Origin: an uncultured virus (IMG/VR IMGVR_UViG_3300035698_023946)
Lineage: Duplodnaviria; Heunggongvirae; Uroviricota; Caudoviricetes
Virus record (IMG/VR): IMGVR_UViG_3300035698_023946
Direction: 5' to 3' (one strand)
Length of the DNA stretch: 64,000 nt
Position numbers and translations under genes: made by a program. The notes beneath the pieces are model-generated. The model saw only the letters and a program-made list of their open reading frames with translations, did no database searches and was not told the origin of the DNA. This document shows positions 1 to 62,927 of the stretch, piece by piece (the stretch's first letter is position 1; each line of letters starts with the position of its first letter).

Positions 1-20
1 ATCGCCATAAAATCAAACAT

Positions 21-105
21 TGGTAGTGAGCCGAGCATGACGGCATCCGGGGAGGCGGGAGAAAGACCCAATTCCTTGGAGTATCGTGTTAAGATACCAC
101 TACCA
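21..105 (+). ncRNA. tRNA-like four-way-junction RNA (non-canonical)
   Basis: TGGTAGTG(21-28)/CACTACCA(98-105) closing stem; GCCG/CGGC arm; TCCGGGGA/TCCTTGGA arm; GTATC/GATAC arm with 7-nt loop. G-U pairs favour the + strand. Confidence 0.45.
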
Positions 106-134
106 TCCGTTTGAGAAAGAAGAAAGGATCAATC

Positions 135-476
135 ATGAATGGAACGACAGTCGCATTTGGAATCATCACAGCAATCGTCATACTCGTCATAGCCGGTGTC
201 GCAATCAAAGTCGTCTCTGATGTCAAAGAAACGGCAGAGACCGTCACAAATGCCGCAGAGACCGTCACAGAGGGTGGTGAGAAACTCATCTCAACTCTCG
301 AAGACACGGAGAAGTTGGACGGTGTGGTGGCGAATGTTGAAGACGGAATGACTCGCACCAAAGAACAAATGAGCAAGGATTATTCATCCGCGAAGGAGAA
401 GGTTTCATCCTTCTTCACAAAATCTGTCACGGAGGAAGAGCGGAATGAAACTCAAAGCTCCAATCAACATAAATGA
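135..476 (+). CDS. hypothetical membrane-anchored protein
   Basis: N-terminal hydrophobic helix then charged helical tail; ATG at 135 preceded by AAGGA. Confidence 0.6.
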   Translation: MNGTTVAFGIITAIVILVIAGVAIKVVSDVKETAETVTNAAETVTEGGEKLISTLEDTEKLDGVVANVEDGMTRTKEQMSKDYSSAKEKVSSFFTKSVTEEERNETQSSNQHK

Positions 477-786
477 TGAAACCTTGGTTCAATGCTTTCG
501 GGCTTTGAAAAAGCAGTGGAGAGAAGAGAATTGGTTCTCTTCCGCCCCACCTGACAACGATCCCTCCTACAAGGCGATCATTGGTTTGGGATGGCCCGTA
601 GTCCCCTTCATCTTGTGGGACTTGGAGAACGATCCAGAATGGTGGTTCGGTGCCTTAAAGAGTATCACGGGAGCAGACCCTTACTCAAAATATGAATACC
701 AACCAGGCAATCTGCCCAGTCTAACTAAGTTGTGGTTGAAATGGGCCGAAGAAGAAGGTGTGAAATCCAAACCTTATGAAAATTAA
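445..786 (+). CDS. hypothetical protein
   Basis: 113-aa ORF in the co-oriented overlapping gene run. Confidence 0.65.
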   Translation: MKLKAPININDETLVQCFRALKKQWREENWFSSAPPDNDPSYKAIIGLGWPVVPFILWDLENDPEWWFGALKSITGADPYSKYEYQPGNLPSLTKLWLKWAEEEGVKSKPYEN

Positions 787-1060
787 AGTTCACAACTCAA
801 TACCGATTCAAGTTGAAGAAGGTGAATATATAGATTTCGATTGTTCAGCTTATCTGATAGATAGGAAGAAATTCATCTTGGGCAATAATATTTCATCATT
901 TTACCCGACAATGCGGGATAGATTTTTCAAAGTCTTAAACATCCGTGAATTTGAAAATGATAGTAATGAAATCGAGTTTATCTACGAATCAGAAAAAATC
1001 ACAATCATCAATCTAAAAGCTGGAGAATACGTGGTGACAAATACCACCAACAAAGATTAA
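776..1060 (+). CDS. small hypothetical protein, MxIxxHN family
   Basis: Starts MKIKVHNS, a start shared with several other small ORFs in the window. Confidence 0.6.
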   Translation: MKIKVHNSIPIQVEEGEYIDFDCSAYLIDRKKFILGNNISSFYPTMRDRFFKVLNIREFENDSNEIEFIYESEKITIINLKAGEYVVTNTTNKD

Positions 1061-1318
1061 GATAGTCGAACAGGAGGAATTTTTTCAATGCGGAGATCAC
1101 GAAACCATGAAATACTTCGATAAACTATTCAAAAGATTCTTCCCTGATAACGATCATTATCAGAAAAGCGAAAGGATCAAGAGTCTTAAAGAAAAACTGG
1201 AACGAGATTTTGATGCCAAGTTAACAAGGGAAGAACAAGATTTGCTGGTCGAATGTATCAACATCCAGATGGGACACATCGTTCAAAATCTGAAAAAAAT
1301 TGAGGACAACATCTAAAT

Positions 1319-2011
1319 ATGAAAACATTAGTCATCGCAGACATTCATTCAAACATCGTTGCTTTAGAACAAATATGGAAAATAGAAAAAAATGCGGACT
1401 CGGTCGTTTGCGCTGGCGATGTCGTTGATTATGGGCCGTATCCAAGAGAATGTATCGATTGGATGATCGACAAACAAGCTATGGTGGTGATAGGGAATCA
1501 CGATCAATCAGTCATTAAGGCTCATGGCAAATTACATATGAGCGAATCTAGAATGACATGGGCAAAACATAATGCACAAAAATTAGATAAACATCACATA
1601 GATTACTTAGTGAACTTGCCTAAAAGTTTATTTTTCGACACAGGTGTTCCTGGAGGTGAATGTGGATTGATTCATTCTTATTCCGATTATGAGACAATCA
1701 AAACTCTTGATGAATTTGGGAGTTTTTCAAAAAAACAATTTCCAGGAAAAGAAGTAAATAGAATCATACTTGGACATACGCATGTGATGGGATTACATCA
1801 CTTGTCGAACCTGCGGAGCTGGATTAACCCAGGAAGCATTTCATATCATCATAAACAACTTTTTCGAGGATCTACTTATGCCGTGATCGAAGATCGTGAA
1901 ACAACTCTTCACTTTTGCACTTACGACACAAGGGGTCTACGTGATGAGGTGATGGCCTCAGACGTATGTAAAAATGAAAAAAGCGTAACTTTAAATTGGT
2001 GGAATGATTAA
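1319..2011 (+). CDS. calcineurin-like metallophosphoesterase
   Basis: DIHSN, GDVVDYG, GNHD and GHTH motifs. Confidence 0.9.
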   Translation: MKTLVIADIHSNIVALEQIWKIEKNADSVVCAGDVVDYGPYPRECIDWMIDKQAMVVIGNHDQSVIKAHGKLHMSESRMTWAKHNAQKLDKHHIDYLVNLPKSLFFDTGVPGGECGLIHSYSDYETIKTLDEFGSFSKKQFPGKEVNRIILGHTHVMGLHHLSNLRSWINPGSISYHHKQLFRGSTYAVIEDRETTLHFCTYDTRGLRDEVMASDVCKNEKSVTLNWWND

Positions 2012-2016
2012 AAGAT

Positions 2017-2112
2017 AGCGGAATACCCAAGCGGCTTAAGGGGATGGTTTCGAAAACCGTTAGGAGGTGTTAATAGCATCTTGCGTGAGTTCGAATCTCA
2101 CTTCCGCTGCCA
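2017..2112 (+). tRNA. tRNA-Ser(CGA)
   Basis: AGCGGAA/TTCCGCT acceptor, loop TT-CGA-AA, long variable arm, GTTCGAAT T-loop, G73, encoded CCA. Confidence 0.9.
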
Positions 2113-2118
2113 AATTAT

Positions 2119-2178
2119 GGGCCTGAAACTCATGGGAGAGTCCTAGGAGAGGGGGTTCGATTCCCCCCAGGTCCACCA
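2119..2178 (+). ncRNA. 60-nt anticodon-less tRNA-Ala-like RNA
   Basis: GGGCCTG/CAGGTCC acceptor with G3-U70, A73, CCA; D arm ACTC/GAGT; T arm GGGGG-TTCGATT-CCCCC; only CCTAGGAGA between D and T arms. Confidence 0.75.
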
Positions 2179-2957
2179 AATATGGAGCAAAGAAAAAATG
2201 TTAGAATATTTAGATTTTGTTTTAACAAATCATATTATTATGATTCTTGTTATAATTGTCATTTGCATTCTTTTGTTTGGAATGGCAATTGATTATGCTA
2301 TTAGGAAATAACTATAGAAAATGATAGAAGCAATATTGATTAAATTGTTAGCGAATATAATTTCTATTCCAATTATTTTATTAATCTTTTTAACACCACC
2401 GTATAGAAAGATGATAAAATACATTCTAGAAGAAATGGGGTAAATTAGAAAAGATGGCTAAAGAAAAATTTGATGAATGTAAAGAAAAATGTGATGAATA
2501 TGAAAAAGATTTTGGAACGATAGAGTTGATGGCAATCGCATTGTCAGTCACCAACAAAATCATTGTTGAAGCAGGAATAACAACCAGAAAAGAAATTCAA
2601 GATCGGATGATTGAAGAAATTGAAGGACGAAGAAAAAAATCTGACTGAAAGGCGTTAAGACATGTTCATCTTCGCAAGACAGTTCTTTAGAAGGTTAAAA
2701 TGCATCTTTCTAGGTGATGGGGAAAATAAATCATGACCGTGAATGAATTGATAAAGTACTTGACAACGCAACCAAAAGGTGCTACAGTGGTATTGTGCTC
2801 TCCTTCCGGCTCTCCGGATGGCCCAGAGCCTTTGAGAGAATGTGACTTCTTGTTTCGAAGAGACACAAGTCGGAAGAAGGTCAAAGTTGATTCATTGGAA
2901 ATTCAATGTCCTTATTTCGAGCAGTATCCTGACACTGAAGATTTGTGAAGATTAAAT

Positions 2958-3044
2958 GCTGGTGTGCCCGAGAGATCGAAGGGAACGGATTTGTAATCCG
3001 TCAGCGAAAGCTCGTCGTCAGTTCAAATCTGACCACCAGCTCCA
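2958..3044 (+). tRNA. tRNA-Thr(TGT) with long variable arm
   Basis: GCTGGTG/CACCAGC acceptor, ACGGA-TT-TGT-AA-TCCGT, variable hairpin AGC-GAAA-GCT, T arm GTCAG-TTCAAAT-CTGAC, TCCA end. Confidence 0.85.
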
Positions 3045-3067
3045 TTGATTTTAATAAAGACTTCAAT

Positions 3068-3146
3068 GCCTCTGTAGCTCAGCCTGGATCAGAGCATCGC
3101 TCTTCTAAAGCGAGGGTCATTCGTTCAAATCGAATCAGAGGTACCA
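3068..3146 (+). tRNA. tRNA-Arg(TCT)
   Basis: Full cloverleaf, TCGCT-CT-TCT-AA-AGCGA, ACCA end. Confidence 0.92.
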
Positions 3147-3154
3147 AATTTAAA

Positions 3155-3346
3155 ATGACTTGCAAAAAACGCAAATATGATTTAATAGATGCAATGATGG
3201 CCTTGGCCGACTGTCAAGCCAATCATAGGAAAAACAACAGAGAAGAAAATAGATATTACTTTTGTAAAAGATGTCAAGGATATCACTTGACAAGTCAAAA
3301 AAGAAAGGAAACGAAGAACTATGTCAGAAGCAGAGCAGGAAATTGA
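3155..3346 (+). CDS. small Zn-ribbon-like hypothetical phage protein
   Basis: YFCKRCQGYHLTS motif; start moved to ATG 3155 because the upstream part of the tracked ORF overlaps two tRNAs. Confidence 0.6.
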   Translation: MTCKKRKYDLIDAMMALADCQANHRKNNREENRYYFCKRCQGYHLTSQKRKETKNYVRSRAGN

Positions 3347-3887
3347 GACGTTGACGAGGATCGCAAATGGTCTCGAAGAACAGGTGAGTGATCTCCAGGC
3401 GGAGAACATTCAACTCAAGACAGACAATGAAGCCCTGGACAAGAGGATTGAATACGTTCACGAAAGAGTAAATCGACTCTTTAGCGAAGTATCAAATCAG
3501 TATGTTGAAACCAGAAAGCGACTACGACATAATAACCGAACTCATGCACGTCTGGAAGTCAAGATTTCCGGACTGTCTCGTAGGCACCAAAGAACTCGGG
3601 AAATTGCGGCTTCTCTACGTGATGAGTTACATCCGATCTCACTCACGGAAAAGAAACGAATCCGAAGAGAGATCAACAGGAAGTACCTAGAGAGGGGTAG
3701 AGCGACGAAGGAAAGGCTGAAGAGGTCTCGGGTCAGGATTCGTGAACAGAAGGCTGAGAGAGCAAGCAAACGGGCTTCTCGGGCCAGACAGCACAAACGA
3801 TTGTCTCTCCAGGAACAAGTGGAGAGAGGAATCAAGAATGTCTCTGACCTGAGTCCGAATCAAAAACTGAAATTGGGACTGTGTTAA
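3321..3887 (+). CDS. coiled-coil, Arg-rich hypothetical protein
   Basis: Heptad-like N-half, basic C-half; AAGGA RBS. Confidence 0.65.
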   Translation: MSEAEQEIETLTRIANGLEEQVSDLQAENIQLKTDNEALDKRIEYVHERVNRLFSEVSNQYVETRKRLRHNNRTHARLEVKISGLSRRHQRTREIAASLRDELHPISLTEKKRIRREINRKYLERGRATKERLKRSRVRIREQKAERASKRASRARQHKRLSLQEQVERGIKNVSDLSPNQKLKLGLC

Positions 3888-3920
3888 ACGAGTTGATCGA
3901 TGAAAAATTAGGAGAAAAAG

Positions 3921-4253
3921 ATGTCTTATTGTAGATTCATCGAGGGTGACGTTTACATGTTCGAAACCTGCGATTCGACCATTCACTGCTGCTGTTGTTC
4001 TTTGGCAGAATTGGTCACCACAATCTTCACCAAAGGGGCTGATGAAGATTCTCCGATCTTCAAGGACATAAAGCCTTGTGAAGATTGTGAAGGTGAGGGC
4101 TGTGAAATCTGCATGATGAATGGAGATTCAGTTTTCCATGATAGAGAATCTGCCTTGAAGCATCTTCAAGAACACATAGAGAAGGGAGATAATGTCCCTC
4201 CCCGTGCGATGGAACGTTTGAAAGAAGAAATTGAGGAGGAACTTCCTCTTTAA
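3921..4253 (+). CDS. Cys-rich hypothetical protein
   Basis: AGGAG RBS; CCCC and CEDC..CEIC motifs. Confidence 0.65.
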   Translation: MSYCRFIEGDVYMFETCDSTIHCCCCSLAELVTTIFTKGADEDSPIFKDIKPCEDCEGEGCEICMMNGDSVFHDRESALKHLQEHIEKGDNVPPRAMERLKEEIEEELPL

Positions 4254-4273
4254 GAGAAAAGCAAGGAGGTAAA

Positions 4274-4360
4274 ATCTGAATGGAGAAATTGGAAAACTCA
4301 CTATGGTCGTCAACATAGTAATCTTAATGATTTGTCGGTTCGAGTCCGGCTTCAATTTCA
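4274..4360 (+). pseudogene. degenerate class-II tRNA with 8-nt anticodon loop
   Basis: D arm GAG/CTC, stem CTATG/CATAG with loop GTCGTCAA, variable hairpin AATC/GATT, intact T arm GTCGG-TTCGAGT-CCGGC, mismatched acceptor, no CCA. Confidence 0.6.
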
Positions 4361-4557
4361 CCTTCTTGCTTATTTAAATGATGAAAAACCATGAATGGAT
4401 GCATTTCACATGTCTGGAAGACATGGAACAAGAGATTCAAATCATTGAAGTTCTTTTACTCAATAAGAGAAACGATGAAGCTATTGAAAAACTCGAAATG
4501 TTTATCGAAGAATCAAAATCTTTTATAGAACGTTGTAAAAAGAGACAAAAACCGAAT

Positions 4558-4635
4558 GGCAGAGTACGCTAATCTGGAAAAGCGGTTTGTTTCAAAAACA
4601 AATGACTGAGGGTTCAACTCCCTCCTCTGCTACCA
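4558..4635 (+). tRNA. tRNA with CAA (Leu) anticodon on a short-variable-loop body
   Basis: GGCAGAG/CTCTGCT acceptor, TTTGT-TT-CAA-AA-ACAAA, 5-nt variable loop TGACT, ACCA. Confidence 0.85.
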
Positions 4636-4652
4636 AATTATCAAATGTAAGT

Positions 4653-4727
4653 GCCAGGGAAGCTCAATGGAAGGGCGTATGCTTGTGGCGCATATATGAC
4701 AGGGTTCAATTCCCTGCCCTGGTGCCA
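4653..4727 (+). tRNA. tRNA-His(GTG), atypical acceptor end
   Basis: TATGC-TT-GTG-GC-GCATA; acceptor GCCAGGG/CCCTGGT; T at -1, G73, CCA. Confidence 0.85.
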
Positions 4728-4981
4728 TTTTGAAAGGAAAATCAATGGCATACGAAAATAGAATGTTTTTCCTCAAGTGGACCACTTACGGTCCAAAGAC
4801 GAAGACGGCAGAAACTCATGCCGTCTTCGGAACTGAAGGTACTTTACTTAGAATCCATGAAGGATTGAGCCTTCTCCCTCATAACAAACATTTTGAAGTC
4901 AGGGACTTGAAATCTCTTGATGAAGAGTTTAAGATAACGGCAGAAGGGATCATACGTAAGTTTTAAAAGGACACATACACA

Positions 4982-5218
4982 TTGACAACTACCTTAGATC
5001 AGATCGAGGAAGGACAGCAAGCTAAAATAATCAAAGTAGGAAATTTCAGAAGCTCTTCTAGATTGGCGGAGATGGGCCTTGTGGCGGGAGAAATAGTGAG
5101 AGTGTCCAACAAGGCATTGTTCGGTTGCCCTACGGCAGTGATCGTCAAGGGCAGTTCACTTGCGATACGAGTGAAGGATTTGAAAAGAATTTCGGTGTGG
5201 ATAGAAGATGATGAATAA
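4982..5218 (+). CDS. feoA: FeoA-family SH3-like protein
   Basis: RLAEMGLVAGEIVRV...ALFGCP..V.VKGSSLAIR pattern typical of FeoA. Confidence 0.8.
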   Translation: MTTTLDQIEEGQQAKIIKVGNFRSSSRLAEMGLVAGEIVRVSNKALFGCPTAVIVKGSSLAIRVKDLKRISVWIEDDE

Positions 5219-6557: not shown

Positions 6558-6986
6558 ATGTACGACGCAGGAAACATCTTCATCGATAATCGTAAAAATT
6601 ATGATAATATCATCGAAAAATCAAGTTATACGCCTTTCATTTACAAAACAACAACCGCGATGAGAAAAACAAGTATTCCCATGGAGCCCGGACCAATGAG
6701 AGAAGACCTTGCCGCATGGAAAACATATAATGTCATCAGGCATCATGAAGAAGGAAGATTCCTCGTCATTCATGTTGATTTTCAATCAGCAGTTTACGGA
6801 GAGAAGGTCTTAGTCTTCAAAAATGCCTCCTTGGTGGACTTGATGAACCAGAAGGAAATCAATCCACGCATCGGTGAATCAGACGATTCTTTCATTCGTC
6901 CAATCGCTGATTTCTTCGCAAACGAAGAAGGCTGGTTATTGGCAGTAGGTTTAGTTTCAAACCTATCAGGAGAAGAAGATGTTTAA
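6558..6986 (+). CDS. hypothetical protein
   Basis: 142-aa ORF coupled to neighbours by overlapping stop/start. Confidence 0.6.
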   Translation: MYDAGNIFIDNRKNYDNIIEKSSYTPFIYKTTTAMRKTSIPMEPGPMREDLAAWKTYNVIRHHEEGRFLVIHVDFQSAVYGEKVLVFKNASLVDLMNQKEINPRIGESDDSFIRPIADFFANEEGWLLAVGLVSNLSGEEDV

Positions 6987-7368
6987 AGCCTTGGTGTTAG
7001 ACGACATGCCGGAAAGACACATACATTTTCAACAAAGATTTGCTGAGGTCAACTGCGAATCTGAGCATGTCTTCAATGTCGAAGATTGCATTGAGAGATT
7101 GGAGGAAAGGGCTTATGACATCATCTTCCTAGATCATGACTTAGGAGGAGAAACGATGGTCAGTTCTTCTCGTCTAGACACCGGTTCCGAAGTGGCCAGA
7201 TGGTTTGTTGAAAACGAGCACCTGAACAAAGAAACGCCAATCATCGTTCATTCATTCAACCCGGATGGTGCGAGATACATGTGCGAGACATTCGGGAAAC
7301 AGAGCGTTCACATTCCCGGCTGTTGGATCAAAGAGTTTTTTCATAAGAATGTCAAAGTGCCGACGTAG
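6979..7368 (+). CDS. stand-alone receiver-like domain (cyclic-phosphate-processing REC type)
   Basis: VLDD...IIFLDHDLG...GSEVARW...IIVHSFNP pattern. Confidence 0.75.
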   Translation: MFKALVLDDMPERHIHFQQRFAEVNCESEHVFNVEDCIERLEERAYDIIFLDHDLGGETMVSSSRLDTGSEVARWFVENEHLNKETPIIVHSFNPDGARYMCETFGKQSVHIPGCWIKEFFHKNVKVPT

Positions 7369-7434
7369 CTCAACTGGAAGAGTTTTCCCCCGGTACGGGA
7401 AGGGTTGATGGTTCAAGTCCATCCGTTGGCTCCA
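7359..7434 (+). tRNA. tRNA-Thr(GGT)
   Basis: GCCGACG/CGTTGGC acceptor, TTCCC-CC-GGT-AC-GGGAA (C33), TCCA. Confidence 0.88.
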
Positions 7435-7452
7435 TTTTTACAACAAACAATC

Positions 7453-8415
7453 ATGTTAATGACAAGAGACAATTTCCGGCGAACGGTTCTTTCTATGACA
7501 AATGGACAATGCTCTTTTTGTGACGCTAGAGCCGTAGACACACATCACATCATGGAAAGAAAACTTTGGGACGATGAGGGTTATTATCTTGAAAATGGTT
7601 GCCCCTTATGTGAAACGCATCATAAATTAGCAGAAAGAAACATCATCACTCCAAACCAATGTAGAGAATCGATGGCATATGATAAATCAATTCTCCCAAA
7701 TCAATTTTCATCTATCAAAGATTATGACAAATGGGGAAAAGAACTAGAAATAAAAGAACATTTCAATGGTTGGATTAAATATCCTTCCACCATTTATTTC
7801 GACTTTTCACCGTCAAATGATACGAGCGAGATTTTTCCAACCGAAGAACTGGTGGATTGTCAATTAGCAATCACAATCAAAATGGATGGTTCTAATCTGA
7901 CAATGACTTCAGACCACATTGGAGCAAGGAACGGTTGGTCTGCAAAGCATCCATCATTTGACATGGCTAAAGCAGAACATGCTAAAATAAAAAAATTAAT
8001 CCCAGAAAATCTTCAATTATTCGGAGAGTGGTTGTACGCCAAACACTCCATTCATTACAAAGGAAAAATGTCTTTGAAAAATGGTTTGTTTCAAGTTTTC
8101 AATATTTATGACAAAGAATCTCATGAATTCTTGAACTGGGAAAAAGTGAAAAAAATTGCAAAACAAATAGGGTTTCAGACAACTCCTATAGTAAAGGAAA
8201 ATGTAAATTATGACAAAGACTGGAAATTGAGAAATGAATTAGAAAAAATTGGTAAAAAGGTCGTAGATAGTGGACATGAAGGAATCGTCGTCAGAAGTGT
8301 TTACTCATTCCATTATTCTCAATTTGAAAAAAGACTGGCAAAATATGTGAGAAAAAATCACGTTCAAACAAATAAACATTGGAGTAAAGGAAAAATTGAG
8401 CGAAATATACACTGA
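7453..8415 (+). CDS. HNH nuclease fused to ATP-dependent RNA ligase (Rnl2-like)
   Basis: N-term CSFC...DTHHI...NGCPLCETHH; C-term KYP, KMDGSN (motif I), FGEW, EGIVVR, AKYVR..HVQ. Confidence 0.85.
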   Translation: MLMTRDNFRRTVLSMTNGQCSFCDARAVDTHHIMERKLWDDEGYYLENGCPLCETHHKLAERNIITPNQCRESMAYDKSILPNQFSSIKDYDKWGKELEIKEHFNGWIKYPSTIYFDFSPSNDTSEIFPTEELVDCQLAITIKMDGSNLTMTSDHIGARNGWSAKHPSFDMAKAEHAKIKKLIPENLQLFGEWLYAKHSIHYKGKMSLKNGLFQVFNIYDKESHEFLNWEKVKKIAKQIGFQTTPIVKENVNYDKDWKLRNELEKIGKKVVDSGHEGIVVRSVYSFHYSQFEKRLAKYVRKNHVQTNKHWSKGKIERNIH

Positions 8416-15318: not shown

Positions 15319-15669
15319 GGGGGTGAATGTTTCGACGTGAGATAGTGGTTCTTGTGTTACAAGTCGGAGATTCTCGTAGGCTCCGTAAAAAAACGGGAAC
15401 ATCAATAATTGACGAATATTTACCAATTGCTGCTTAAATAAAGCGGCGGATGCTTCGGATTGGATCTCTTGGTTCTGAAAGTCATCCTCATAAACGAGAG
15501 AATAAGGAAGAGGGGACGTCTGGTCCCTCTTCTCGAAAATCAAACAGACTCGATTCTTCGTTGGTTTTTCTGGAGCCTGCTTAGGATTCAAATTAAGTCC
15601 AGAATAAACTTGTAGACGCACCAGACGAACTTTTCGCGGACGGGGGCTCGATACCCCCCACCTCCACCA
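15319..15669 (+). ncRNA. ssrA: tmRNA; tag peptide (A)DEYLPIAA
   Basis: 5' GGGGGTG...TTCGAC; 3' GGAC-GGGGG-CTCGATA-CCCCC-CACCTCC-ACCA with G3-U70; ATAATT-GAC resume at 15411, reading DEYLPIAA-TAA. Confidence 0.92.
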
Positions 15670-21947: not shown

Positions 21948-23162
21948 ATGTCCTACGAAATCAAAGATGGAATCAAAGTGTGGGGAACCACAGACGACGA
22001 CACCGTTCAACAAATGAAGACTTGTCAGGAAACTGGGGATGTCTTTGACGTCGCCTTGATGGGAGACAATCACAAGGGTTATTCTCAACCCATCGGTGGA
22101 GTTGTCGCTTATCTGGGCATGATTTCTCCTTCCGGAGTTGGGTTCGATGTGGGATGCGGGAATCAGGCAACTTTGACGGATCTTTCATTAGAAGATGTCA
22201 AAGAAGACCTCCCAAAGATCATGGATGCGATTCAATCAACCATTTCTTTCGGAGTCGGGAAGAAGAACGTCGTTCCGGTTGAGGATGAATTATTCGACGA
22301 TCCTACTTGGGATGATGTTTTTGTTCTACGATCTTTGAAAGAATTAGCCAGAGAGCAATTGGGAACTGTTGGTTCTGGAAACCATTATGTGGACATCTTG
22401 CATGAAGAAGAAAATGACAATATTTGGATTGCAAATCATTTTGGTTCTAGGGGTTTCGGACATAAGATGGCCTCTGGCTTCTTGAACTTGATCAATGGAA
22501 GGAAGTTTAAAGATCGACTCCCCGGCGAGAAAATGGAATCTCCTCCCACACTCGTCGATGCGGGAAGTCAACTCGGTCAGGACTACATCGCTGCGATGCA
22601 ATTGGCAGGACGCTATGCCTATGCCGGTCGTGCCCATGCAATCGAACAAGTTCTAAAGATTCTTGGAGCAGGATCTCTGAAAGATGTCAAATGTCATCAC
22701 AATTTCGCTTGGCTAGAAGAACACGATGGCGAAAAAGTTTGGGTAGTTCGAAAAGGTTCTACTCCAAACTTTCCTGGACAGGAAAGTTTCATTGGTGGTT
22801 CGATGTGCGACATCTCGGCCATCATAGAAGGCAAAGATTCTGATGAATCCAGAGAATCCCTTTACTCCACCGTTCATGGAGCCGGAAGAATCATGTCAAG
22901 GACAAAAGCTGCCGGGAAGATGAATTGGAAAAAGAAAGTCAGAAAGACTGCGGGATTGATTTCTCCAGAGATGATGAAAGAATCAATTCAAGACTGGGGG
23001 TTGACCTTACGCGGAGCGGGGCTTGATGAAAGTTCATTCGTTTACCGTAAACTAGAAGGTGTATTAAAAGCGCATGAAGCAACTTTTGAAGTCAAACACA
23101 CTTTGAGACCTATCGGAGTTTGCATGGCCGGAGACGGTGAATTCGACCCCTACAAAGACTAA
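21948..23162 (+). CDS. rtcB: RtcB RNA 3'-phosphate/5'-OH ligase
   Basis: DNH.GY..PIGG, GVGFDVGCG, LGTVGSGNHY, HFGSRG.G, HHNFA, RKGSTP, STVHGAGR. Confidence 0.95.
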   Translation: MSYEIKDGIKVWGTTDDDTVQQMKTCQETGDVFDVALMGDNHKGYSQPIGGVVAYLGMISPSGVGFDVGCGNQATLTDLSLEDVKEDLPKIMDAIQSTISFGVGKKNVVPVEDELFDDPTWDDVFVLRSLKELAREQLGTVGSGNHYVDILHEEENDNIWIANHFGSRGFGHKMASGFLNLINGRKFKDRLPGEKMESPPTLVDAGSQLGQDYIAAMQLAGRYAYAGRAHAIEQVLKILGAGSLKDVKCHHNFAWLEEHDGEKVWVVRKGSTPNFPGQESFIGGSMCDISAIIEGKDSDESRESLYSTVHGAGRIMSRTKAAGKMNWKKKVRKTAGLISPEMMKESIQDWGLTLRGAGLDESSFVYRKLEGVLKAHEATFEVKHTLRPIGVCMAGDGEFDPYKD

Positions 23163-34535: not shown

Positions 34536-35048
34536 ATGAAAAAGAAACTTAAAAAACTAGGAAATCCAGTTCTCAGATCAAGATCTAGGATTGTTTTAAA
34601 AATCACTTCAAAAGTAAAAGAAACCGTCAACCACATGTGGGACATTTTAAACAAGTGTCCTACTGGAGTAGGTCTGGCAGCACCTCAAATCGGGACAGAC
34701 AAACGTATCATCATCGTCAAGGATGGAGACGAAAACATCTGTTTAATAAACCCCGTAATCGTTGAGGCGGATTTGGAAAAAGAAATCGAATTGGAAAGCT
34801 GTATGTCATTACCCAGAGTTCACTTAAAAGTTCCGAGAAGCAAAAAAATAAAAGTTATCGGCAAAAATCTAGGTAACAATGATGTTGAAATTGAAGCAGA
34901 AGGGCTGTTGTCTAGGACATTGCAGCATGAGATCGATCATTTAGATGGGATTCTAATAATCGATTACGCCGAACCTGAAAAAAGAAATGAAATTCTAGAC
35001 AACTTCGATTTTCCAAAAAACAATATTGAACGAAAACGAGTGAAATGA
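34536..35048 (+). CDS. def: peptide deformylase
   Basis: GVGLAAPQIG, ESCMS (EGCLS variant), QHEIDHLDG. Confidence 0.93.
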   Translation: MKKKLKKLGNPVLRSRSRIVLKITSKVKETVNHMWDILNKCPTGVGLAAPQIGTDKRIIIVKDGDENICLINPVIVEADLEKEIELESCMSLPRVHLKVPRSKKIKVIGKNLGNNDVEIEAEGLLSRTLQHEIDHLDGILIIDYAEPEKRNEILDNFDFPKNNIERKRVK

Positions 35049-51227: not shown

Positions 51228-52526
51228 ATGATACGATCAACTAAACATACTCTCACTTTCGCCAATCAATCAAAACAACAGGATCTTTCTGTTTTGATTC
51301 AAAACTATCGTTTAATCCTTCAGCGAACTGTTGATCATCTTTGGAATAACAATATTAGAATTTTCAACAAAAAACACAAATTAATTTATCATTTCAACAT
51401 TCAGAATAATCAATTGAATCTTCCTTCCATATTGGATAATGATTTTCTCAAACAATTTCAATCTCATGATTTCACCATGAGATTGATTCAATGCATTGGA
51501 AAACAAGCATGCTCAATGATCAAAACAACTTTTGCAAAGAGAAGGAAACAATTGTTCAAATTGAAACAGTTGCAAAGAGAAGGAAAAAACACCAAGTATT
51601 TGCAAAGAAAAATCGATTTATTTCCACTTGTCAAACCAAATTGTGAAAATGTCAATCTGGAATTTGATTCTAGATTTTTCGACATTGAAGAAACCGAAGG
51701 TCTTTTTGACTGTTTCGTTCAAATTAAACACATCGGTCAAAAGAAAAAGATCAGAATTCCAACAAAACATACGAAAGTTTCTCGCCATTGGGCTTCCATG
51801 GGAAGACCGATGGGCTCCATTCGCCTGGGAGAAAAATTTGTTTCGTTCAACTTTGAAGTTCAACCCAAAATATGTCATGGCACACGCACCGTAGGTGCGG
51901 ATCAAGGCATTGTGACATGCCTCACATTGTCTGATGGTCAAATCACCAAACCCTGTCCTGACGGACATGATTTGAATTCTATTTTGGAAGAATTCACACA
52001 TCAAAAGAAAAAGAACAGAAAAACCTTTCGTTCAAGACAGTCTGGATCAAGTGGCTTCAGAAAAAAACAAGAACATCGAAAGAATTACATCAACTGGTCT
52101 ATCAATCAATTGGATCTGTCAAATGTCAAAGAACTTCGATTGGAAAAGTTAAAACAAATTAGAAAAAGAAAAAAGAATTTCAAGAATAACAATCGTTGGA
52201 CTTATCGTGAAATAAAACAAAAAATAGAAAACAAATGTGAAGAATTAGGAATCAAATTCTTGGAGGTTCCAAATGAATTTCGTTCTCAAAGATGTTCTTC
52301 ATGTGGTTTCGTTCGTAAATCAAATAGAAAAGGAAAGACGTTCACTTGCTCAGGCTGCGGTTTCACCGCAGACGCGGATTTGAATGCAGCTTCCAATCTA
52401 GAGATTGATCTTTTCGAGATCCCTTTCAAGGTACGATCATCAAAGATGAATCTAGAAGGTTTCTATTGGAAACCAGAGGGTTTGTTTTTGAAGACTGGAA
52501 AGCGTATAGTCTTCCAGACAAGTTAA
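51228..52526 (+). mobile_element. tnpB: TnpB/Cas12f-like RNA-guided RuvC nuclease (IS200/IS605 family), no tnpA
   Basis: RuvC-I VGADQG, RuvC-II LRLEKL, Zn finger SQRCSSCG...FTCSGCG, RuvC-III DADLNAASN. Confidence 0.88.
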
Positions 52527-52603: not shown

Positions 52604-53968
52604 ATGCAAATTTCTGCTCTTTACTATCCGAAATACGATAAAAACTGGTACTCAACAAGTATACGGGGAAAGCTGTTAAATAAACAGTTTCCTATGTGCG
52701 GAGTATATGACTTTAATGATGAGTTGATCTTGATTCAGCATCTTACCCTGTGCAACGCCATAGGTGTTAAAAATCTATTTTTTGAAGTAAATCAAGAATT
52801 TGTAGAAAACGGTATACTTGTCAAATTGAACGATATCATCAATTCGAATGAGATAAACATGAAAATCTCATTCATGATAGATTCAAAAGATATGATAAAG
52901 TTATTAAACGATATCGACGAATCTGATAACCTTTTCAAAATGAAAGGCAAAAAGGTGATTTTAACGAGAGGGTTATCGGAAGTGAAAGAATTACAAGACT
53001 TCTACACGATAGGGGATTTAATGAATTTCTCATACGAAAATCCTGACATTGAAGTTTTGAAACAATTTGACGGGATAACGGGTGTAAATGTTTTTCCAGA
53101 GACATCGAATATAACAGAATGTGTTAAGTCTTTCGACCTGATGCACCAAAAGTATTCAAACTATTTAGATGATACAAAAGTAGACATTTGGCCATGCCTA
53201 TTCCCGAGAATAAATAATTACATCAATCATGAGAGCAATATCCCGAACGGAATTCATGATGATTCTGGGCAATTATTGACGAGACAATTGAAGATGTTTT
53301 CCAATCATCCACATTGCATAATTTCATCTTTCAACAATTGGACAAATGACACTCAAATAGAACCCTGTGGAAATGAGGAATCATATCAAGTTTCAGAACA
53401 GTTAGATGAAAACATAAGTACGAACATGACCGATGAAAAACTTTACAGAAACTATTGTTTTGATTTCGTGAAAATAATAGAACGATTCACAAATCAGCAA
53501 GGGTTCATCAGAAACACAGAAAGCCCTATCATTTCCACCAAACTGGAATTAGATATTTCAAGAAAAAAGACAATCAATATCTCTTTCTTCTATGACGATT
53601 TTTCTGGATATCTATTCAAGCTATGGAACGAGCACATCATCTCGTATCTGAAGATAGAAGATGATGAATTAATATATTTCAAGCAGGGATTCATTAAGGG
53701 GGCAATTGAGAAAAGAATTTGCAAACTAGACAAAGGAAAAGAATACAACATTGAGATCTGCGATCAACCACAAAATTACTATATCAATATAAATGGTGAA
53801 GAGATGCTTCCTGATGAATTGAAGTTTTTAACACAAGACACAAAAAACCTCATATTATTTGATGGAAATCTTTCAAACGAGAACATCGTCGGAAGTGTTA
53901 TCGTCAAAAACACAGACGACAATAAAACCATTTTAACATACCCCTCTGAGGAAATGAAATATGAATAA
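52604..53968 (+). CDS. GH99-like protein, probably catalytically inactive
   Basis: Paralogous to the GH99-like domain of the 1396-aa ORF; SFNNWTNDTQIEP versus SFNEWYEDTQIEP. Confidence 0.65.
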   Translation: MQISALYYPKYDKNWYSTSIRGKLLNKQFPMCGVYDFNDELILIQHLTLCNAIGVKNLFFEVNQEFVENGILVKLNDIINSNEINMKISFMIDSKDMIKLLNDIDESDNLFKMKGKKVILTRGLSEVKELQDFYTIGDLMNFSYENPDIEVLKQFDGITGVNVFPETSNITECVKSFDLMHQKYSNYLDDTKVDIWPCLFPRINNYINHESNIPNGIHDDSGQLLTRQLKMFSNHPHCIISSFNNWTNDTQIEPCGNEESYQVSEQLDENISTNMTDEKLYRNYCFDFVKIIERFTNQQGFIRNTESPIISTKLELDISRKKTINISFFYDDFSGYLFKLWNEHIISYLKIEDDELIYFKQGFIKGAIEKRICKLDKGKEYNIEICDQPQNYYININGEEMLPDELKFLTQDTKNLILFDGNLSNENIVGSVIVKNTDDNKTILTYPSEEMKYE

Positions 53969-55793
53969 ATTCACGATATTGATGCCTGTCTTAAATTTGA
54001 AATATTGGACCAAACATGCGATAGAACACATCAACAAAAATACGCATACAGATTTCGATCTAATCGTAATCAATAATGGGTGCAACAAATCCACAAAAAG
54101 AATGTTAAAATCCTTGAAAGAAGATGAACTCATTCATTCAATCATTGACAATTACGAGAATCTGGGAAGTGCTTATGCTTGGAATCAAGGGATCGAACAA
54201 TGTGAAACAGAAAACATCTGTCTACTTCATTCCGATTCATTAGTTTCTGAAAATTGGGAAAAGCCATTATTGAAGACTTTAGAAAACGACACAGATTTCG
54301 CCTGTTCTATTCCAACCACAAATTACGCAGATGAAACTTTTGTCAGATACAATGACCTCTTTTTAGACCAATACACAAAACTGAAACCAAGCAATAAGTC
54401 TATAACGACCTATGAACAGATTTCAGAACTATTAGAAACATTTTATGAAGGAAATATGAATGATTTTTCTAGTTCATTATCAAAAAAATTCTCCGACTGC
54501 ACGAGGTACCTTTCTGAGATATCTACCTTTTGCATCATGTTCAGAAAAAAGATATTCGACGATCATGGATTATTCGATACAGATTTCTTCCCACATTTCG
54601 GATTTGAAAAGCTGTTCTTCTATAATCTTCAATCAAAAGGTTACGAAGCCGTTTGTTGTCTAGACTCATATGTCCATCATAATGGGAACTCTACTTCCGA
54701 TGGTCCTGGGATGAACATACACGCCACAGTAGAAAAGAATATTCAATTGTTGGAAGAAAAGATTCAACAAATAGACTACGGCAAATCTCAAGTAATAACT
54801 AAAAAGGAAAAAGAAGAGATACTCTCAAATGATAGGCAATTAACAAACAATATATTAATGAATCCTAATGTTAAAAAAATACTATGTATTAGGAATGGCG
54901 ATATTGGAGACATTTCTCAATGCCTACTTTTATTAAACAACTTGAAACAAATAAAACGGGGTCTTTCTATAGATTTCATGACCGATGAAACTCATTTCGA
55001 TTTGATAAGAACTTTCAACGTAGTAGACGAATTGATTACTTTTCCTGTTAAGTCTTTTGAAGACTCCATGTACGAGAACGTTGTGACTCATATCTATTCT
55101 AAGTATCAAAACAAGTATGACGCTATCGTGAACTGGACTCTCTATCCCGAAAAGTTTCCAAACGATGGAGCAAATCGTTTAAGTGTTTTTCAAAACTACT
55201 TAAACGTTGATCGTCTATCAGTCGATTTAAACAAAGATATTTCAAAGCTAAACATTCAATTCGAATCCACAGAGATAAAGAAATGCAAGTCATATTTAAA
55301 CAGTAAGAAAACAAACATTCTAATTCTTCCTGATGGATCTTCGAAAGAGAGATCGATCCCGATAAAAAGTATTGCAAAATTCTATTCAAATCTAGACTTA
55401 AACAAATTTGAATTGTTATACTATAGTGCCCTGAACCCCTTCCCGGAATTAGGTCCGGCACCAATTCATAATCCACTGAATGAATTAGAAAAATGTTGCT
55501 TGATGAATCTGTGTAATTTTGTGATTACGACAGACAGCGAACTTCTTCACTTATGCTACCTCCTCAACAAGCCTTTCATTGGAATCTGTTTAGAAGACCA
55601 CCCGAAGCAATCAATTCTCCATCTCACAGAATCTAAACAAAAATTCAAGATTCTTTACGAGCCGGAATTAATCAGCCTTTCTCAAATAACTGAAGATGAT
55701 TTAACTGGGAATAAAATGACAATCCTATTTGAAGAACTGTTATCGGGAAACACTTCTCAAGAACGAGAAGACAAAGTTGAAGACTTCTTTTAA
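53961..55793 (+). CDS. GT2 + GT9 fusion glycosyltransferase
   Basis: N-half paralogous to 47220..48110 (PTTNYADE, SYVHHNGNSTSDGP); C-half RNGDIGDI...ITTDSELLHL. Confidence 0.8.
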   Translation: MNKFTILMPVLNLKYWTKHAIEHINKNTHTDFDLIVINNGCNKSTKRMLKSLKEDELIHSIIDNYENLGSAYAWNQGIEQCETENICLLHSDSLVSENWEKPLLKTLENDTDFACSIPTTNYADETFVRYNDLFLDQYTKLKPSNKSITTYEQISELLETFYEGNMNDFSSSLSKKFSDCTRYLSEISTFCIMFRKKIFDDHGLFDTDFFPHFGFEKLFFYNLQSKGYEAVCCLDSYVHHNGNSTSDGPGMNIHATVEKNIQLLEEKIQQIDYGKSQVITKKEKEEILSNDRQLTNNILMNPNVKKILCIRNGDIGDISQCLLLLNNLKQIKRGLSIDFMTDETHFDLIRTFNVVDELITFPVKSFEDSMYENVVTHIYSKYQNKYDAIVNWTLYPEKFPNDGANRLSVFQNYLNVDRLSVDLNKDISKLNIQFESTEIKKCKSYLNSKKTNILILPDGSSKERSIPIKSIAKFYSNLDLNKFELLYYSALNPFPELGPAPIHNPLNELEKCCLMNLCNFVITTDSELLHLCYLLNKPFIGICLEDHPKQSILHLTESKQKFKILYEPELISLSQITEDDLTGNKMTILFEELLSGNTSQEREDKVEDFF

Positions 55794-62272: not shown

Positions 62273-62927
62273 AATTTGATAAATCCATATTTATTTCAAT
62301 ATTAGAGCTTTTATTTTCCCCATTTTCAAATGAAGGAAATCTCTTTATATCGATTACCATTTCTTTCATTTTGATTTTACTAAGACCATGCTCCATATCC
62401 AAATCAACATCTGGATAATAAATATGTGTCAAATCCTTCGGTACTGCCACAATATTGTAATTCTTGAAAATATCTGATAACTTCTTTATATTAAACAACT
62501 TCAAATGACGATAAACTCTTCTACCGAGCTTTCTTTTAATCTCCTGCCTCAAAAACTCTATGTCATCAGATACCGCAACAAATGATCTAATATTATACTC
62601 TATGTCATCGTGAATATCTACCAGATATGCTTCAAAAAACCTTGATTCAGCATTCTTTGCGACCTTATTTTCAAAAACACTTTCATCATCTTTGTTTTTT
62701 AATTCTCCAAACTTATACGGGTATAATTCCGGTATTCTTTCGCATGGAAAGTCGTTCAAATCTACCGAACAAGAAAAATCTTGATAATCATTTTCTTCTA
62801 AGTTTTCTTTCTTTTTACAACCGTTATACTTGCACCCCACACAAGAACTCCACCGATCATGCAGATATTCCACCGTTTTCTCTGCTTCAATAACTTCATA
62901 TTCATCACTACACCCTTCTTTCATCAC
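62172..62927 (-). CDS. hypothetical protein
   Basis: 251-aa ORF. Confidence 0.6.
   Translation of the reverse strand: MMKEGCSDEYEVIEAEKTVEYLHDRWSSCVGCKYNGCKKKENLEENDYQDFSCSVDLNDFPCERIPELYPYKFGELKNKDDESVFENKVAKNAESRFFEAYLVDIHDDIEYNIRSFVAVSDDIEFLRQEIKRKLGRRVYRHLKLFNIKKLSDIFKNYNIVAVPKDLTHIYYPDVDLDMEHGLSKIKMKEMVIDIKRFPSFENGENKSSNIEINMDLSNYDEVEKIELPKAKRKRNPKPKSSGTKRRRRTEG

What the first reader, a model, noticed from the sequence alone, without database searches (positions are those of the whole stretch)
2119..2178. 60-nt tRNA-Ala mimic with the anticodon arm cleanly deleted
It has a perfect acceptor stem with G3-U70 and A73-CCA, the established AlaRS identity set (AlaRS does not read the anticodon). 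The D and T arms are intact, but only CCTAGG remains where the anticodon arm should be. No mismatch elsewhere argues against random decay. Inference: an alanylatable RNA with no anticodon to cleave, resembling a free tmRNA tRNA-like domain. It could bind SmpB/EF-Tu, add Ala at stalled ribosomes, donate Ala outside translation, or act as a decoy. A full tmRNA lies 13 kb away.
Basis: partly seen in the sequence, partly recalled or inferred. Interest (0 to 1): 0.78.

Follow-up and report, generated by a model that had tools for sequence, protein, structure and literature searches.

The report
Alanine tRNA gene without anticodon arm
A probable large phage from a salt lake carries, in its row of tRNA genes, a 60-base alanine-type tRNA gene whose codon-reading arm is missing; it is real, but the data cannot show whether it is a working decoy-like RNA or a freshly broken gene.

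Summary
Window 2119-2178 (+) is a tRNA-derived unit. It has a 7-bp acceptor stem with G3.U70, A73-CCA, a 4-bp D arm and a 5-bp T arm. Nine bases stand where about 23 (position 26, anticodon arm, variable loop) should be. It starts 6 nt after tRNA-Ser.

ARAGORN and the Rfam tRNA model do not call it. A model built only from 26 similar units of other phage contigs matches it end to end (44.2 bits).

Most alanine determinants are present, but it does not resemble a tmRNA tRNA-like domain. No SmpB or aminoacyl-transferase gene was found nearby.

In an IMG/VR control scan without an alanine constraint, arm-less units carried many acceptor types; G3.U70 made up 5 of 28 unique units. They are rare: 9 alanine-type loci among 2.9 million contigs. 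Some families are young. Others are old and covary, and one is linked to a small cysteine-rich protein that this window lacks.

No close relative, read coverage or RNA data exist for this window. My odds are about 45% a young loss-of-function deletion, about 45% a maintained non-decoding RNA, and about 5% an artefact.

This scan has noted such units before on other DNA (51 notes, at least 49 genomes).

The parts
2119..2178 (+). the whole 60-nt anticodon-arm-less tRNA-Ala-like unit
2119..2125 (+). acceptor stem, 5' strand (G3 at 2121)
   Evidence: 7 of 7 pairs with 2168-2174
2128..2141 (+). D-like arm: 4-bp stem, 6-nt loop with GGG
   Evidence: cloverleaf-like fold -24.2 kcal/mol against MFE -28.5
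2142..2150 (+). 9-nt linker in place of position 26, anticodon arm and variable loop
   Evidence: linkers of 7-11 nt in the 25 arm-less units of other contigs
2151..2167 (+). T arm: 5-bp G/C stem, loop TTCGATT
2168..2174 (+). acceptor stem, 3' strand (U70 at 2172)
2175..2178 (+). discriminator A73 and encoded CCA
   Evidence: 12 of the 13 full-size tRNAs my scanner listed in the window also encode CCA
2017..2112 (+). tRNA-Ser(CGA), ends 6 nt before the unit; probable co-transcript (context)
2198..2311 (+). 37-codon ORF (hydrophobic) starting 19 nt after the CCA, with GGAG at 2184-2187 (context)
   Evidence: read; below the 40-aa limit

Best explanation
This is a tRNA-Ala gene that lost about 14 bases, essentially the whole anticodon stem-loop, through one small internal deletion. 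Such a loss could come from slippage across the hairpin.

The remainder still has everything the tRNA-processing machinery reads. It would be transcribed with tRNA-Ser, cut at G1 by RNase P and trimmed to its encoded CCA, and alanyl-tRNA synthetase would probably load it. That enzyme reads the acceptor stem, not the anticodon. The product cannot read a codon.

I think the single most likely status is a young, nearly neutral loss-of-function allele, i.e. a fresh pseudogene whose RNA is a harmless by-product. The derivation from a tRNA and the loss of decoding are shown. Transcription, processing and charging are inferred. The 'young and unselected' part is a judgement on odds.
For: The unit is tRNA-derived, sits in a tRNA row, and all arms except one are intact.

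An IMG/VR control scan without an alanine constraint gave 28 unique arm-less units with mixed acceptor types. One family aligns end to end with a 76-nt tRNA-Thr of 12 Klebsiella phage records. Mixed origins are what sporadic deletions in any tRNA would give.

The units are rare. There are 9 alanine-type loci (7 unique) in 2.9 million viral contigs. Among one genome each of 185,579 species there were 4 raw matches, of which 1 pairs fully.

Some families are young and already eroding. In the tRNA-Thr-derived family the flanks are 91-100% identical, the unit 94-100%, and two variants have only 4 of 5 T-stem pairs. Two other units occur only with 100% identical flanks.

None of the 38 model matches in 4 distantly related large-phage records is an arm-less unit; one of these records (G003, L376) has three normal tRNA-Ala genes.

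Nothing nearby suggests a partner. No SmpB or aminoacyl-transferase domain appeared in 89 ORFs, and the window has no copy of the small Cys-rich protein linked to one arm-less family (best tblastn E 0.24).
Against: All 16 stem pairs, the D-loop GG and the T loop are intact. A relic must therefore be very young.

At least two or three arm-less families elsewhere are old and constrained:
- Six units next to homologous small proteins (36-51% identical to the first sequence) keep 97.9% of cells paired. Eight of 16 pairs changed on both sides, and 0 of 500 shuffles reach that.
- In another family the unit is 89-98% identical while its flanks are 76-96% identical, higher than both flanks in all pairs but two, whose upstream flank is 96% against 89% for the unit. 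It has a compensated 1:72 change.

So a maintained role is possible for such units.

Phage genomes tend to purge dead DNA (general knowledge, not tested here). No relative with a full-length allele was found, but no close relative was found at all.
Confidence: 0.45

Rival explanations
1. It is a maintained, alanine-charged, non-decoding mini-tRNA. The phage makes it to occupy or distract factors that read only the acceptor/T half of a tRNA: AlaRS, EF-Tu, or host defence toxins that modify or cut tRNA 3' ends.
For: The acceptor keeps A73, G2-C71 and G3.U70 and the CCA is encoded. All stems are intact. Minihelices with G3.U70 are charged by AlaRS (Francklyn and Schimmel 1989, seen only as a reference listed in PMC9976931).

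The window is rich in tRNA-maintenance genes: a metallophosphatase, cREC_REC plus an RNA ligase, RtcB, and a PolyA_pol-head nucleotidyltransferase. This points to a conflict over tRNAs.

Acceptor-end toxins linked to phage defence exist, for example toxSAS FaRel2 (abstract in the listing). Alanine-type arm-less units with compensatory changes exist elsewhere.
Against: G3.U70 is only 5 of 28 unique units in the unconstrained control. In the covarying family two of six members have G3:C70, so charging with alanine is not what that family conserves.

There is no relative, expression or charging data for this unit. Pair 4:69 departs from the listed determinant.
Confidence: 0.22
2. It is a t-element-like processing or structural mark. 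The tRNA-shaped fold is kept only so that RNase P and the 3' trimming enzymes cut the polycistronic transcript here, or so that a protein binds it. Charging is irrelevant.
For: Plant mitochondrial t-elements are degenerate tRNAs with acceptor/T-arm mimics. Some lack the anticodon arm, and they direct RNase P/Z cuts at mRNA ends (passage of PMC5499578).

The unit lies 19 nt before an ORF with its own GGAG. In the covarying family the small ORF starts a few nt (about 5) after ACCA or ends about 7-10 nt before G1. Arm-less units carry many acceptor types.
Against: tRNA-Ser, 6 nt upstream, already provides the same cuts, so a second mark seems redundant. Bacterial 3' maturation of CCA-encoding tRNAs is exonucleolytic (general knowledge), so it defines mRNA 5' ends poorly. 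There is no conservation data for this unit.
Confidence: 0.2
3. It is a free tmRNA tRNA-like domain. It binds SmpB and either enters stalled ribosomes or titrates SmpB, like the TLD-only RNA of phage DS6A.
For: It has G3.U70, ACCA and a G/C T stem, as in tmRNA 3' ends. Its last 25 nt are identical to the 3' ends of two tmRNAs (L001, L002).

The phage has its own tmRNA. A TLD-like molecule inhibits tmRNA, perhaps by titrating SmpB (Mao et al. 2009, as told in a passage of PMC4131195).
Against: The same 25 nt also end a normal tRNA-Ala (L003). The unit has a tRNA-type D stem-loop and no TLD D-loop motif or P2 remnant. Rfam tmRNA models match only the T arm, at 14.8 and 15.6 bits. No SmpB domain appeared in 89 ORFs.
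Confidence: 0.05
4. It is an assembly or sequencing artefact that dropped about 14 bases from a normal tRNA-Ala gene.
For: There is only one assembly and no independent cover. Logan contigs of 4 runs do not cover 2016-2340.
Against: Short-read assemblers do not normally delete one hairpin cleanly (general knowledge). Units of the same architecture occur in many independent contigs.
Confidence: 0.05

Closest known systems
Ordinary phage tRNA-Ala(UGC) genes (e.g. L003:314-390)
   Same: Acceptor stem with G3.U70 and C4:G69, A73, encoded CCA, identical last 25 nt, and a place in a tRNA row.
   Different: The window unit has 9 nt where position 26, the 17-nt anticodon arm and the variable loop should be. 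tRNA detectors do not call it.
t-elements of plant mitochondrial mRNAs
   Same: Degenerate tRNAs that keep acceptor and T-arm mimics. Some lack the anticodon arm (passage of PMC5499578).
   Different: They are organellar, sit at mRNA ends, and are known as RNase P/Z signals. They are not reported to keep an aminoacylation identity set or an encoded CCA. Cleavage was not tested here.
TLD-only (CDS-less) tmRNA of mycobacteriophage DS6A
   Same: A phage-encoded, anticodon-less, alanine-type acceptor/T-arm RNA (PMC4131195 passages; sequence).
   Different: DS6A has the stemless TLD D loop, a short P2-like helix, about 82 nt and no encoded CCA. The window unit has a tRNA D arm and no helix.
mascRNA / menRNA (Rfam RF01684)
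   Same: About 60-nt tRNA-like RNAs with an acceptor and T arm and a reduced middle. This is the best Rfam match.
   Different: The score of 23.8 bits is below the 42.5 cut-off. They are vertebrate lncRNA 3'-end products and are not aminoacylated (recalled).
Synthetic minihelix-Ala
   Same: An acceptor/T-arm substrate that AlaRS charges through G3.U70 (reference listed in PMC9976931; details recalled).
   Different: It is man-made and lacks a D arm. The window unit is a natural gene that keeps the D arm.
Arm-less tRNA-like units of other phage contigs
   Same: The same plan: 7-bp acceptor, 2 nt, D arm, 7-11-nt linker, T arm, ACCA. The independent model R2 matches end to end at 44.2 bits.
   Different: There is no sequence relative of the window unit among them. 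One conserved sub-family has a small Cys-rich protein partner that the window lacks.

Membership tests
decoding tRNA-Ala | 7-bp acceptor stem with G3.U70, A73, CCA end | tested here: met
decoding tRNA-Ala | anticodon arm with an NGC anticodon | tested here: not met
   only 9 nt lie between the D and T stems
decoding tRNA-Ala | recognised by tRNA detectors | tested here: not met
   ARAGORN does not call it; no RF00005 match is reported, and the best match of the tRNA clan is tRNA-Sec at 18.4 bits
AlaRS substrates (bacterial identity set: A73, G2-C71, G3.U70, G4-C69, G20; PMC9976931 table) | A73, G2-C71, G3.U70 | tested here: met
AlaRS substrates (bacterial identity set) | G4-C69 | tested here: not met
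   the pair is C4-G69; a normal phage tRNA-Ala in L003 has the same pair
AlaRS substrates (bacterial identity set) | G20 in the D loop | tested here: inconclusive
   the 6-nt D loop holds GGG, and the numbering is ambiguous
AlaRS substrates (bacterial identity set) | actual alanylation | not testable with these tools
   needs an enzyme assay
tmRNA tRNA-like domain / TLD-only tmRNA | stemless D loop with the TLD motif, contacting SmpB | tested here: not met
   the unit has a 4-bp D stem and no such motif; compare the window's own tmRNA and DS6A
tmRNA tRNA-like domain / TLD-only tmRNA | match to tmRNA covariance models beyond the T arm | tested here: not met
   14.8 and 15.6 bits, T-arm region only
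tmRNA tRNA-like domain / TLD-only tmRNA | SmpB binding | not testable with these tools
   no SmpB domain in 89 window ORFs
mascRNA-menRNA (RF01684) | score at or above the gathering cut-off | tested here: not met
   23.8 against 42.5 bits
t-element-like processing marks | acceptor/T-arm mimic without anticodon arm | tested here: met
t-element-like processing marks | defines an mRNA end through RNase P/Z cleavage | not testable with these tools
   an ORF starts 19 nt downstream; no RNA data
   44.2 bits, E 1.2e-9, above every full-size tRNA of the window (best 38.5)
   no relative of the window was found; 0 arm-less units among 38 matches in 4 distant records
arm-less unit plus small Cys-rich protein module | adjacent gene for the 58-70-aa Arg-rich, Cys-rich protein | tested here: not met
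   best tblastn E 0.24 in the window

The most novel reading that the evidence does not exclude
The phage keeps this gene on purpose. It makes a natural minihelix-like RNA that the host loads with alanine and that cannot decode. This RNA would serve as bait or a sponge in the fight over tRNAs, for example against host defence enzymes that inspect or modify tRNA acceptor ends, or for AlaRS, EF-Tu or SmpB. It would be one member of a barely described set of anticodon-less tRNA look-alikes in phages.
Probability: 0.2. Interest if true: 0.8.

Novelty: new member of a known kind. Interest (0 to 1): 0.4.

Why it matters
If it is maintained, it would be a natural counterpart of the synthetic alanine minihelix: a chargeable RNA that takes no part in decoding. 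It would add a new kind of player to phage-host conflicts over tRNAs.

If it is a fresh pseudogene, it is ordinary. It then mainly warns that alanine-type arm-less units flagged by eye are a subset of sporadic anticodon-arm deletions that hit tRNAs of many identities.

Such units are rare and heterogeneous, and at least one family is an old, covarying RNA gene tied to an unknown small cysteine-rich protein.

Tried and rejected
Read support. Logan contigs of 4 salt-lake runs (X1-X4) were laid on 1800-2600. None covers 2016-2340, and one contig ends at 1995. This gives no verdict on an assembly deletion. No RNA holder was listed.

Close relatives:
- The exact 60-mer has 0 matches in IMG/VR.
- A degenerate pattern specific to the unit has 0 matches in metagenome contigs.
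- The upstream phosphatase protein has 0 relatives in IMG/VR and 0 among 90 candidate stretches in metagenome contigs.
- blastn of 1500-3500 against 50,697 phage records matched only single tRNA genes.
- blastn of the 60-mer matched only T-arm/acceptor ends of tmRNAs and tRNAs, and no record covered 80% of it. I inspected three of these hits. Pseudomonas phage SM1 is a tmRNA piece, Xoo-sp13 is unresolved, and RobinSparkles is an annotated tmRNA domain.

Distant relatives. The RNA ligase has relatives at 31-39% identity in four contigs of 72-485 kb. Model R1 found 38 matches in them. Of the four short ones, three lie inside tRNA-Leu genes and one is the 3' end of a roughly 285-nt RNA.

Alanine enrichment baseline. 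Only 9 full-size tRNAs with the same motifs lay in the 144 unbiased loci, and 1 of them has G:T at 3:70. That is too few to judge whether 5 of 28 is an excess.

The first alanine-type pattern was mostly hit by normal tRNA-Ala genes through their anticodon stems. Only 8 of 120 loci were true units.

CCTAGG as a dimerisation or restriction signal: 2 sites in the window against 4.35 expected, and other units have no palindromic linker. Rejected.

Promoter and terminator scan of 1-5000: counts near those of shuffles, nothing next to the unit.

The small-protein alignment could not be used for a genome scan.

Literature searches found no paper that describes natural anticodon-arm-less tRNA-like genes in phages. 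Two candidate hits were unrelated. Subscription journals are not covered by these searches.

Full report
WHAT IS THERE

Window 2119-2178 (+) reads as a tRNA with one arm missing.
- Seven standard pairs join 2119-2125 to 2168-2174. The third pair is G.U.
- A73 and CCA follow at 2175-2178.
- 2151-2167 is a T arm with five G:C pairs and the loop TTCGATT.
- 2128-2141 can form a D arm with a 4-bp stem and a 6-nt loop holding GGG.
- Between the D and T stems lie 9 nt. A class I tRNA has about 23 there (position 26, the 17-nt anticodon arm, and a 5-nt variable loop).

All 16 stem pairs are standard. Some departures from a textbook tRNA-Ala remain:
- Position 8 is A.
- Pair 4:69 is C:G.
- The computed optimum fold (-28.5 kcal/mol) pairs part of the D loop with the CCTAGG of the linker. 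The cloverleaf-like fold scores -24.2.
- The energy is not unusual against shuffles (z = -1.73; 9 of 200 shuffles fold as well).

DETECTION AND CHANCE

ARAGORN finds 15 tRNAs and a tmRNA in the window. None is for alanine, and it does not call this unit. Rfam at gathering scores finds 11 tRNAs and the tmRNA. In a permissive scan of 1950-2350 the unit's best family is mascRNA-menRNA at 23.8 bits, below its cut-off of 42.5. tmRNA models touch only the T arm, at 14.8 and 15.6 bits.

The bare stem criteria occur 0.135 times per shuffled window, so they prove little alone. What excludes chance is the sum of several things:
- the identity pair and the ACCA;
- the D arm;
- the position 6 nt after the CCA of tRNA-Ser(CGA);
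- an end-to-end 44.2-bit match (E 1.2e-9) to a covariance model built only from 26 arm-less units of other contigs. That score is higher than for any full-size tRNA of the window, the best of which is 38.5.

SETTING

All genes around the unit are on the + strand.
- Upstream: a metallophosphatase gene (1319-2011) and tRNA-Ser (2017-2112).
- Downstream, 19 nt after the CCA: a 37-codon hydrophobic ORF with its own GGAG.

The first 21 kb of the window intersperse tRNAs with small ORFs. The window also holds these genes:
- a cREC_REC domain protein next to an RNA ligase (6979-8415);
- RtcB (21948-23162);
- a peptide deformylase;
- a PolyA_pol-head nucleotidyltransferase (62924-63928);
- a tmRNA (15319-15669).

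No SmpB and no aminoacyl-tRNA transferase domain was seen among 89 ORFs at E 1e-4 or better.

The only relatives of the RNA ligase in IMG/VR lie in contigs of 72-485 kb, at 31-39% identity. Parts of the region occur in salt-lake metagenome runs. That this is a large phage is an inference from these points. No structural phage gene was identified among the 16 proteins scanned against PHROGs.

NO CLOSE RELATIVES, NO READS

- The exact unit is absent from IMG/VR.
- A degenerate unit-specific pattern is absent from the metagenome contigs.
- The upstream protein has no relative in either collection.
- The contigs of four runs that hold parts of the region stop short of 2016-2340.

The last 25 nt of the unit are identical to the 3' ends of two tmRNAs (L001, L002) and of one normal tRNA-Ala(UGC) in a phage tRNA row (L003). 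That tRNA-Ala also has C4:G69.

IS IT A KIND?

I searched IMG/VR (2.9 million contigs) with structural patterns. Each scan stops at 120 loci.

Control scan without an alanine constraint. The pattern asked for A73-CCA, a TTCRANT loop, a short linker and a TRGCTC D arm.
- It gave 38 loci (28 unique units) with at least 6 of 7 acceptor pairs and at least 4 of 5 T-stem pairs, 57-64 nt long.
- Their 3:70 pairs are G:C 9, A:T 7, C:G 6, G:T 5 and C:C 1.

Anticodon-arm-less units therefore arise from tRNAs of many identities. One family aligns over its whole length with a 76-nt tRNA-Thr of 12 Klebsiella phage records. Another has the C1:G72 and A73 typical of tRNA-Pro; that typing is recalled, not tested.

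Full census of the alanine type with a canonical D arm.
- It gave only 9 loci and 7 unique units.
- Seven of these 9 loci were already in the 120-locus control sample. The whole control class is therefore probably near 150 raw matches and 50 good loci. This is my estimate.
- The same pattern found 4 raw matches in one genome each of 185,579 prokaryote species. I could parse two of them. One pairs fully, and it is identical, with 30-nt flanks on each side, to an IMG/VR locus.
- Eight of the 9 alanine-type loci have no tRNA within 1.5 kb.
- Of the 25 unique strict units, 6 have a tRNA within about 400 nt.

THE KIND IS HETEROGENEOUS

Some units look young:
- Two occur only with 100% identical flanks.
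- In the tRNA-Thr-derived family the flanks are 91-100% identical, the unit 94-100%, and two variants have a T-stem mismatch.

Others look old:
- In one family the unit is 89-98% identical while its flanks are 76-96% identical; in two pairs the upstream flank (96%) is more alike than the unit (89%). The changes sit in loops and in the linker, or are compensated. Pair 1:72 switches between C:G and G:C, and 3:70 between A:U and G:U.
- Six units (L391, L395, L396, L397, L289, L312) each lie beside a homologous 58-70-residue protein with an Arg/Lys-rich N-terminus and seven invariant cysteines. These proteins are 36-51% identical to the first sequence of the alignment.
- In four of these loci the ORF starts a few nt (about 5) after ACCA. 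In the other two it ends about 7-10 nt before G1.
- These six units keep 97.9% of cells paired. Eight of 16 pairs changed on both sides, and none of 500 shuffles reaches that. The two unpaired cells come from a misaligned D arm.
- Four of the six have G3.U70 and two have G3:C70.

The protein has no Pfam or PHROG family. It has a weak likeness to ribosomal protein bL32 (best E 0.012), and the atlas gave no usable lead. The window encodes no such protein.

READING FOR THIS UNIT

Shown:
- It derives from a tRNA.
- It has most of the alanine determinants.
- It cannot decode.
- It fits a recurrent architecture.

Inferred from established knowledge of RNase P (which accepts acceptor/T-arm substrates; passage of PMC5499578) and of AlaRS (identity set in PMC9976931):
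- It would be excised and probably alanylated.

Open:
- Whether it is kept by selection.

Against a special alanine role:
- Arm-less units carry mixed identities.
- G3.U70 is not conserved in the best covarying family.
- No partner gene lies nearby.

Against a tmRNA-like role:
- The D region is tRNA-like.
- It differs from the window's own tmRNA and from the TLD-only RNA of DS6A.

For maintenance:
- Every stem is intact.
- Some families elsewhere are clearly constrained.
- The window's gene content suggests a struggle over tRNAs.

My odds:
- young loss-of-function deletion, 0.45;
- maintained alanine-accepting decoy, 0.22;
- charging-independent processing or binding mark, as in t-elements, 0.20;
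- free TLD, 0.05;
- artefact, 0.05.

WHAT IS KNOWN

Five literature searches found no paper on natural anticodon-arm-less tRNA-like genes in phages. The nearest published things are:
- plant mitochondrial t-elements;
- the TLD-only tmRNA of DS6A, together with the report that a TLD-like molecule inhibits tmRNA;
- mascRNA;
- synthetic minihelix-Ala.

T4 species 1 and 2 RNAs are a further recalled comparison that I did not check.

This scan has itself noted 51 findings of this sort in at least 49 genomes. I used those notes as leads only.

VERDICT

The feature is real and modestly interesting, and its status is undecided. The tmRNA-like interpretation is not supported. The alanine-decoy idea remains possible but unproven.

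Noticed in passing
L391:1310-1561, L395:1501-1765, L396:1314-1562, L397:1501-1782, L289:394-655, L312:394-669: A conserved module in six phage contig lineages: an arm-less tRNA-like unit directly next to a 58-70-aa protein with an Arg/Lys-rich N-terminus and seven invariant Cys. The RNA covaries (8 of 16 pairs changed on both sides). The protein has no Pfam or PHROG family and only a weak likeness to ribosomal protein bL32 (E 0.012).
   Followed up: partly
window 4274-4359: ARAGORN calls a tRNA of unknown type with a 4-base anticodon. The fold shows a long acceptor-like stem, no D arm, an 8-nt anticodon-like loop, a small extra hairpin, a good T arm and no CCA. Rfam has no tRNA match. It may be a second non-canonical tRNA-like unit in the same row.
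   Followed up: partly
window 1319-2011, 6979-8415, 21948-23162, 62924-63928, 34536-35048: An RNA-repair and translation-support set: a metallophosphatase, a cREC_REC domain protein beside an RNA ligase, RtcB, a PolyA_pol-head (CCA-adding-like) nucleotidyltransferase, and a peptide deformylase.
   Followed up: no
window 15319-15669: A full phage-borne tmRNA with tag DEYLPIAA (Rfam 129.4 bits). No SmpB domain appeared among the 89 ORFs scanned.
   Followed up: partly
window 51228-52526: A TnpB/Cas12f1-like protein: transposase PHROGs and the Cas12f1-like TNB domain.
   Followed up: no
L382:2329-2613 (record G003, 424-kb phage contig): A roughly 285-nt stretch whose ends form an alanine-type acceptor stem (G3.U70) with a T arm and ACCA. 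ARAGORN does not call it. It may be a divergent tmRNA or a tRNA-Ala with a large insert.
   Followed up: no
L045, L017, L127: Other short alanine-type units seen in a 120-locus sample: a 58-nt one whose D region looks like a tmRNA TLD loop, a 44-nt bare minihelix, and a 53-nt unit with a small hairpin. Some may be chance pairings.
   Followed up: no
L282, L283, L337 against L361/L242/L398 and L400: One arm-less family switches between a C1:G72/A3:U70 acceptor and a G1:C72/G3.U70 (alanine-type) acceptor on the same core. The alanine-type form also sits in a Microbacterium hydrothermale genome contig.
   Followed up: partly
L367 (Pseudomonas phage SM1, NC_041877.1 around 53880-54133): ARAGORN calls tmRNA-like genes, one of them permuted, where the record has no annotation.
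   Followed up: no
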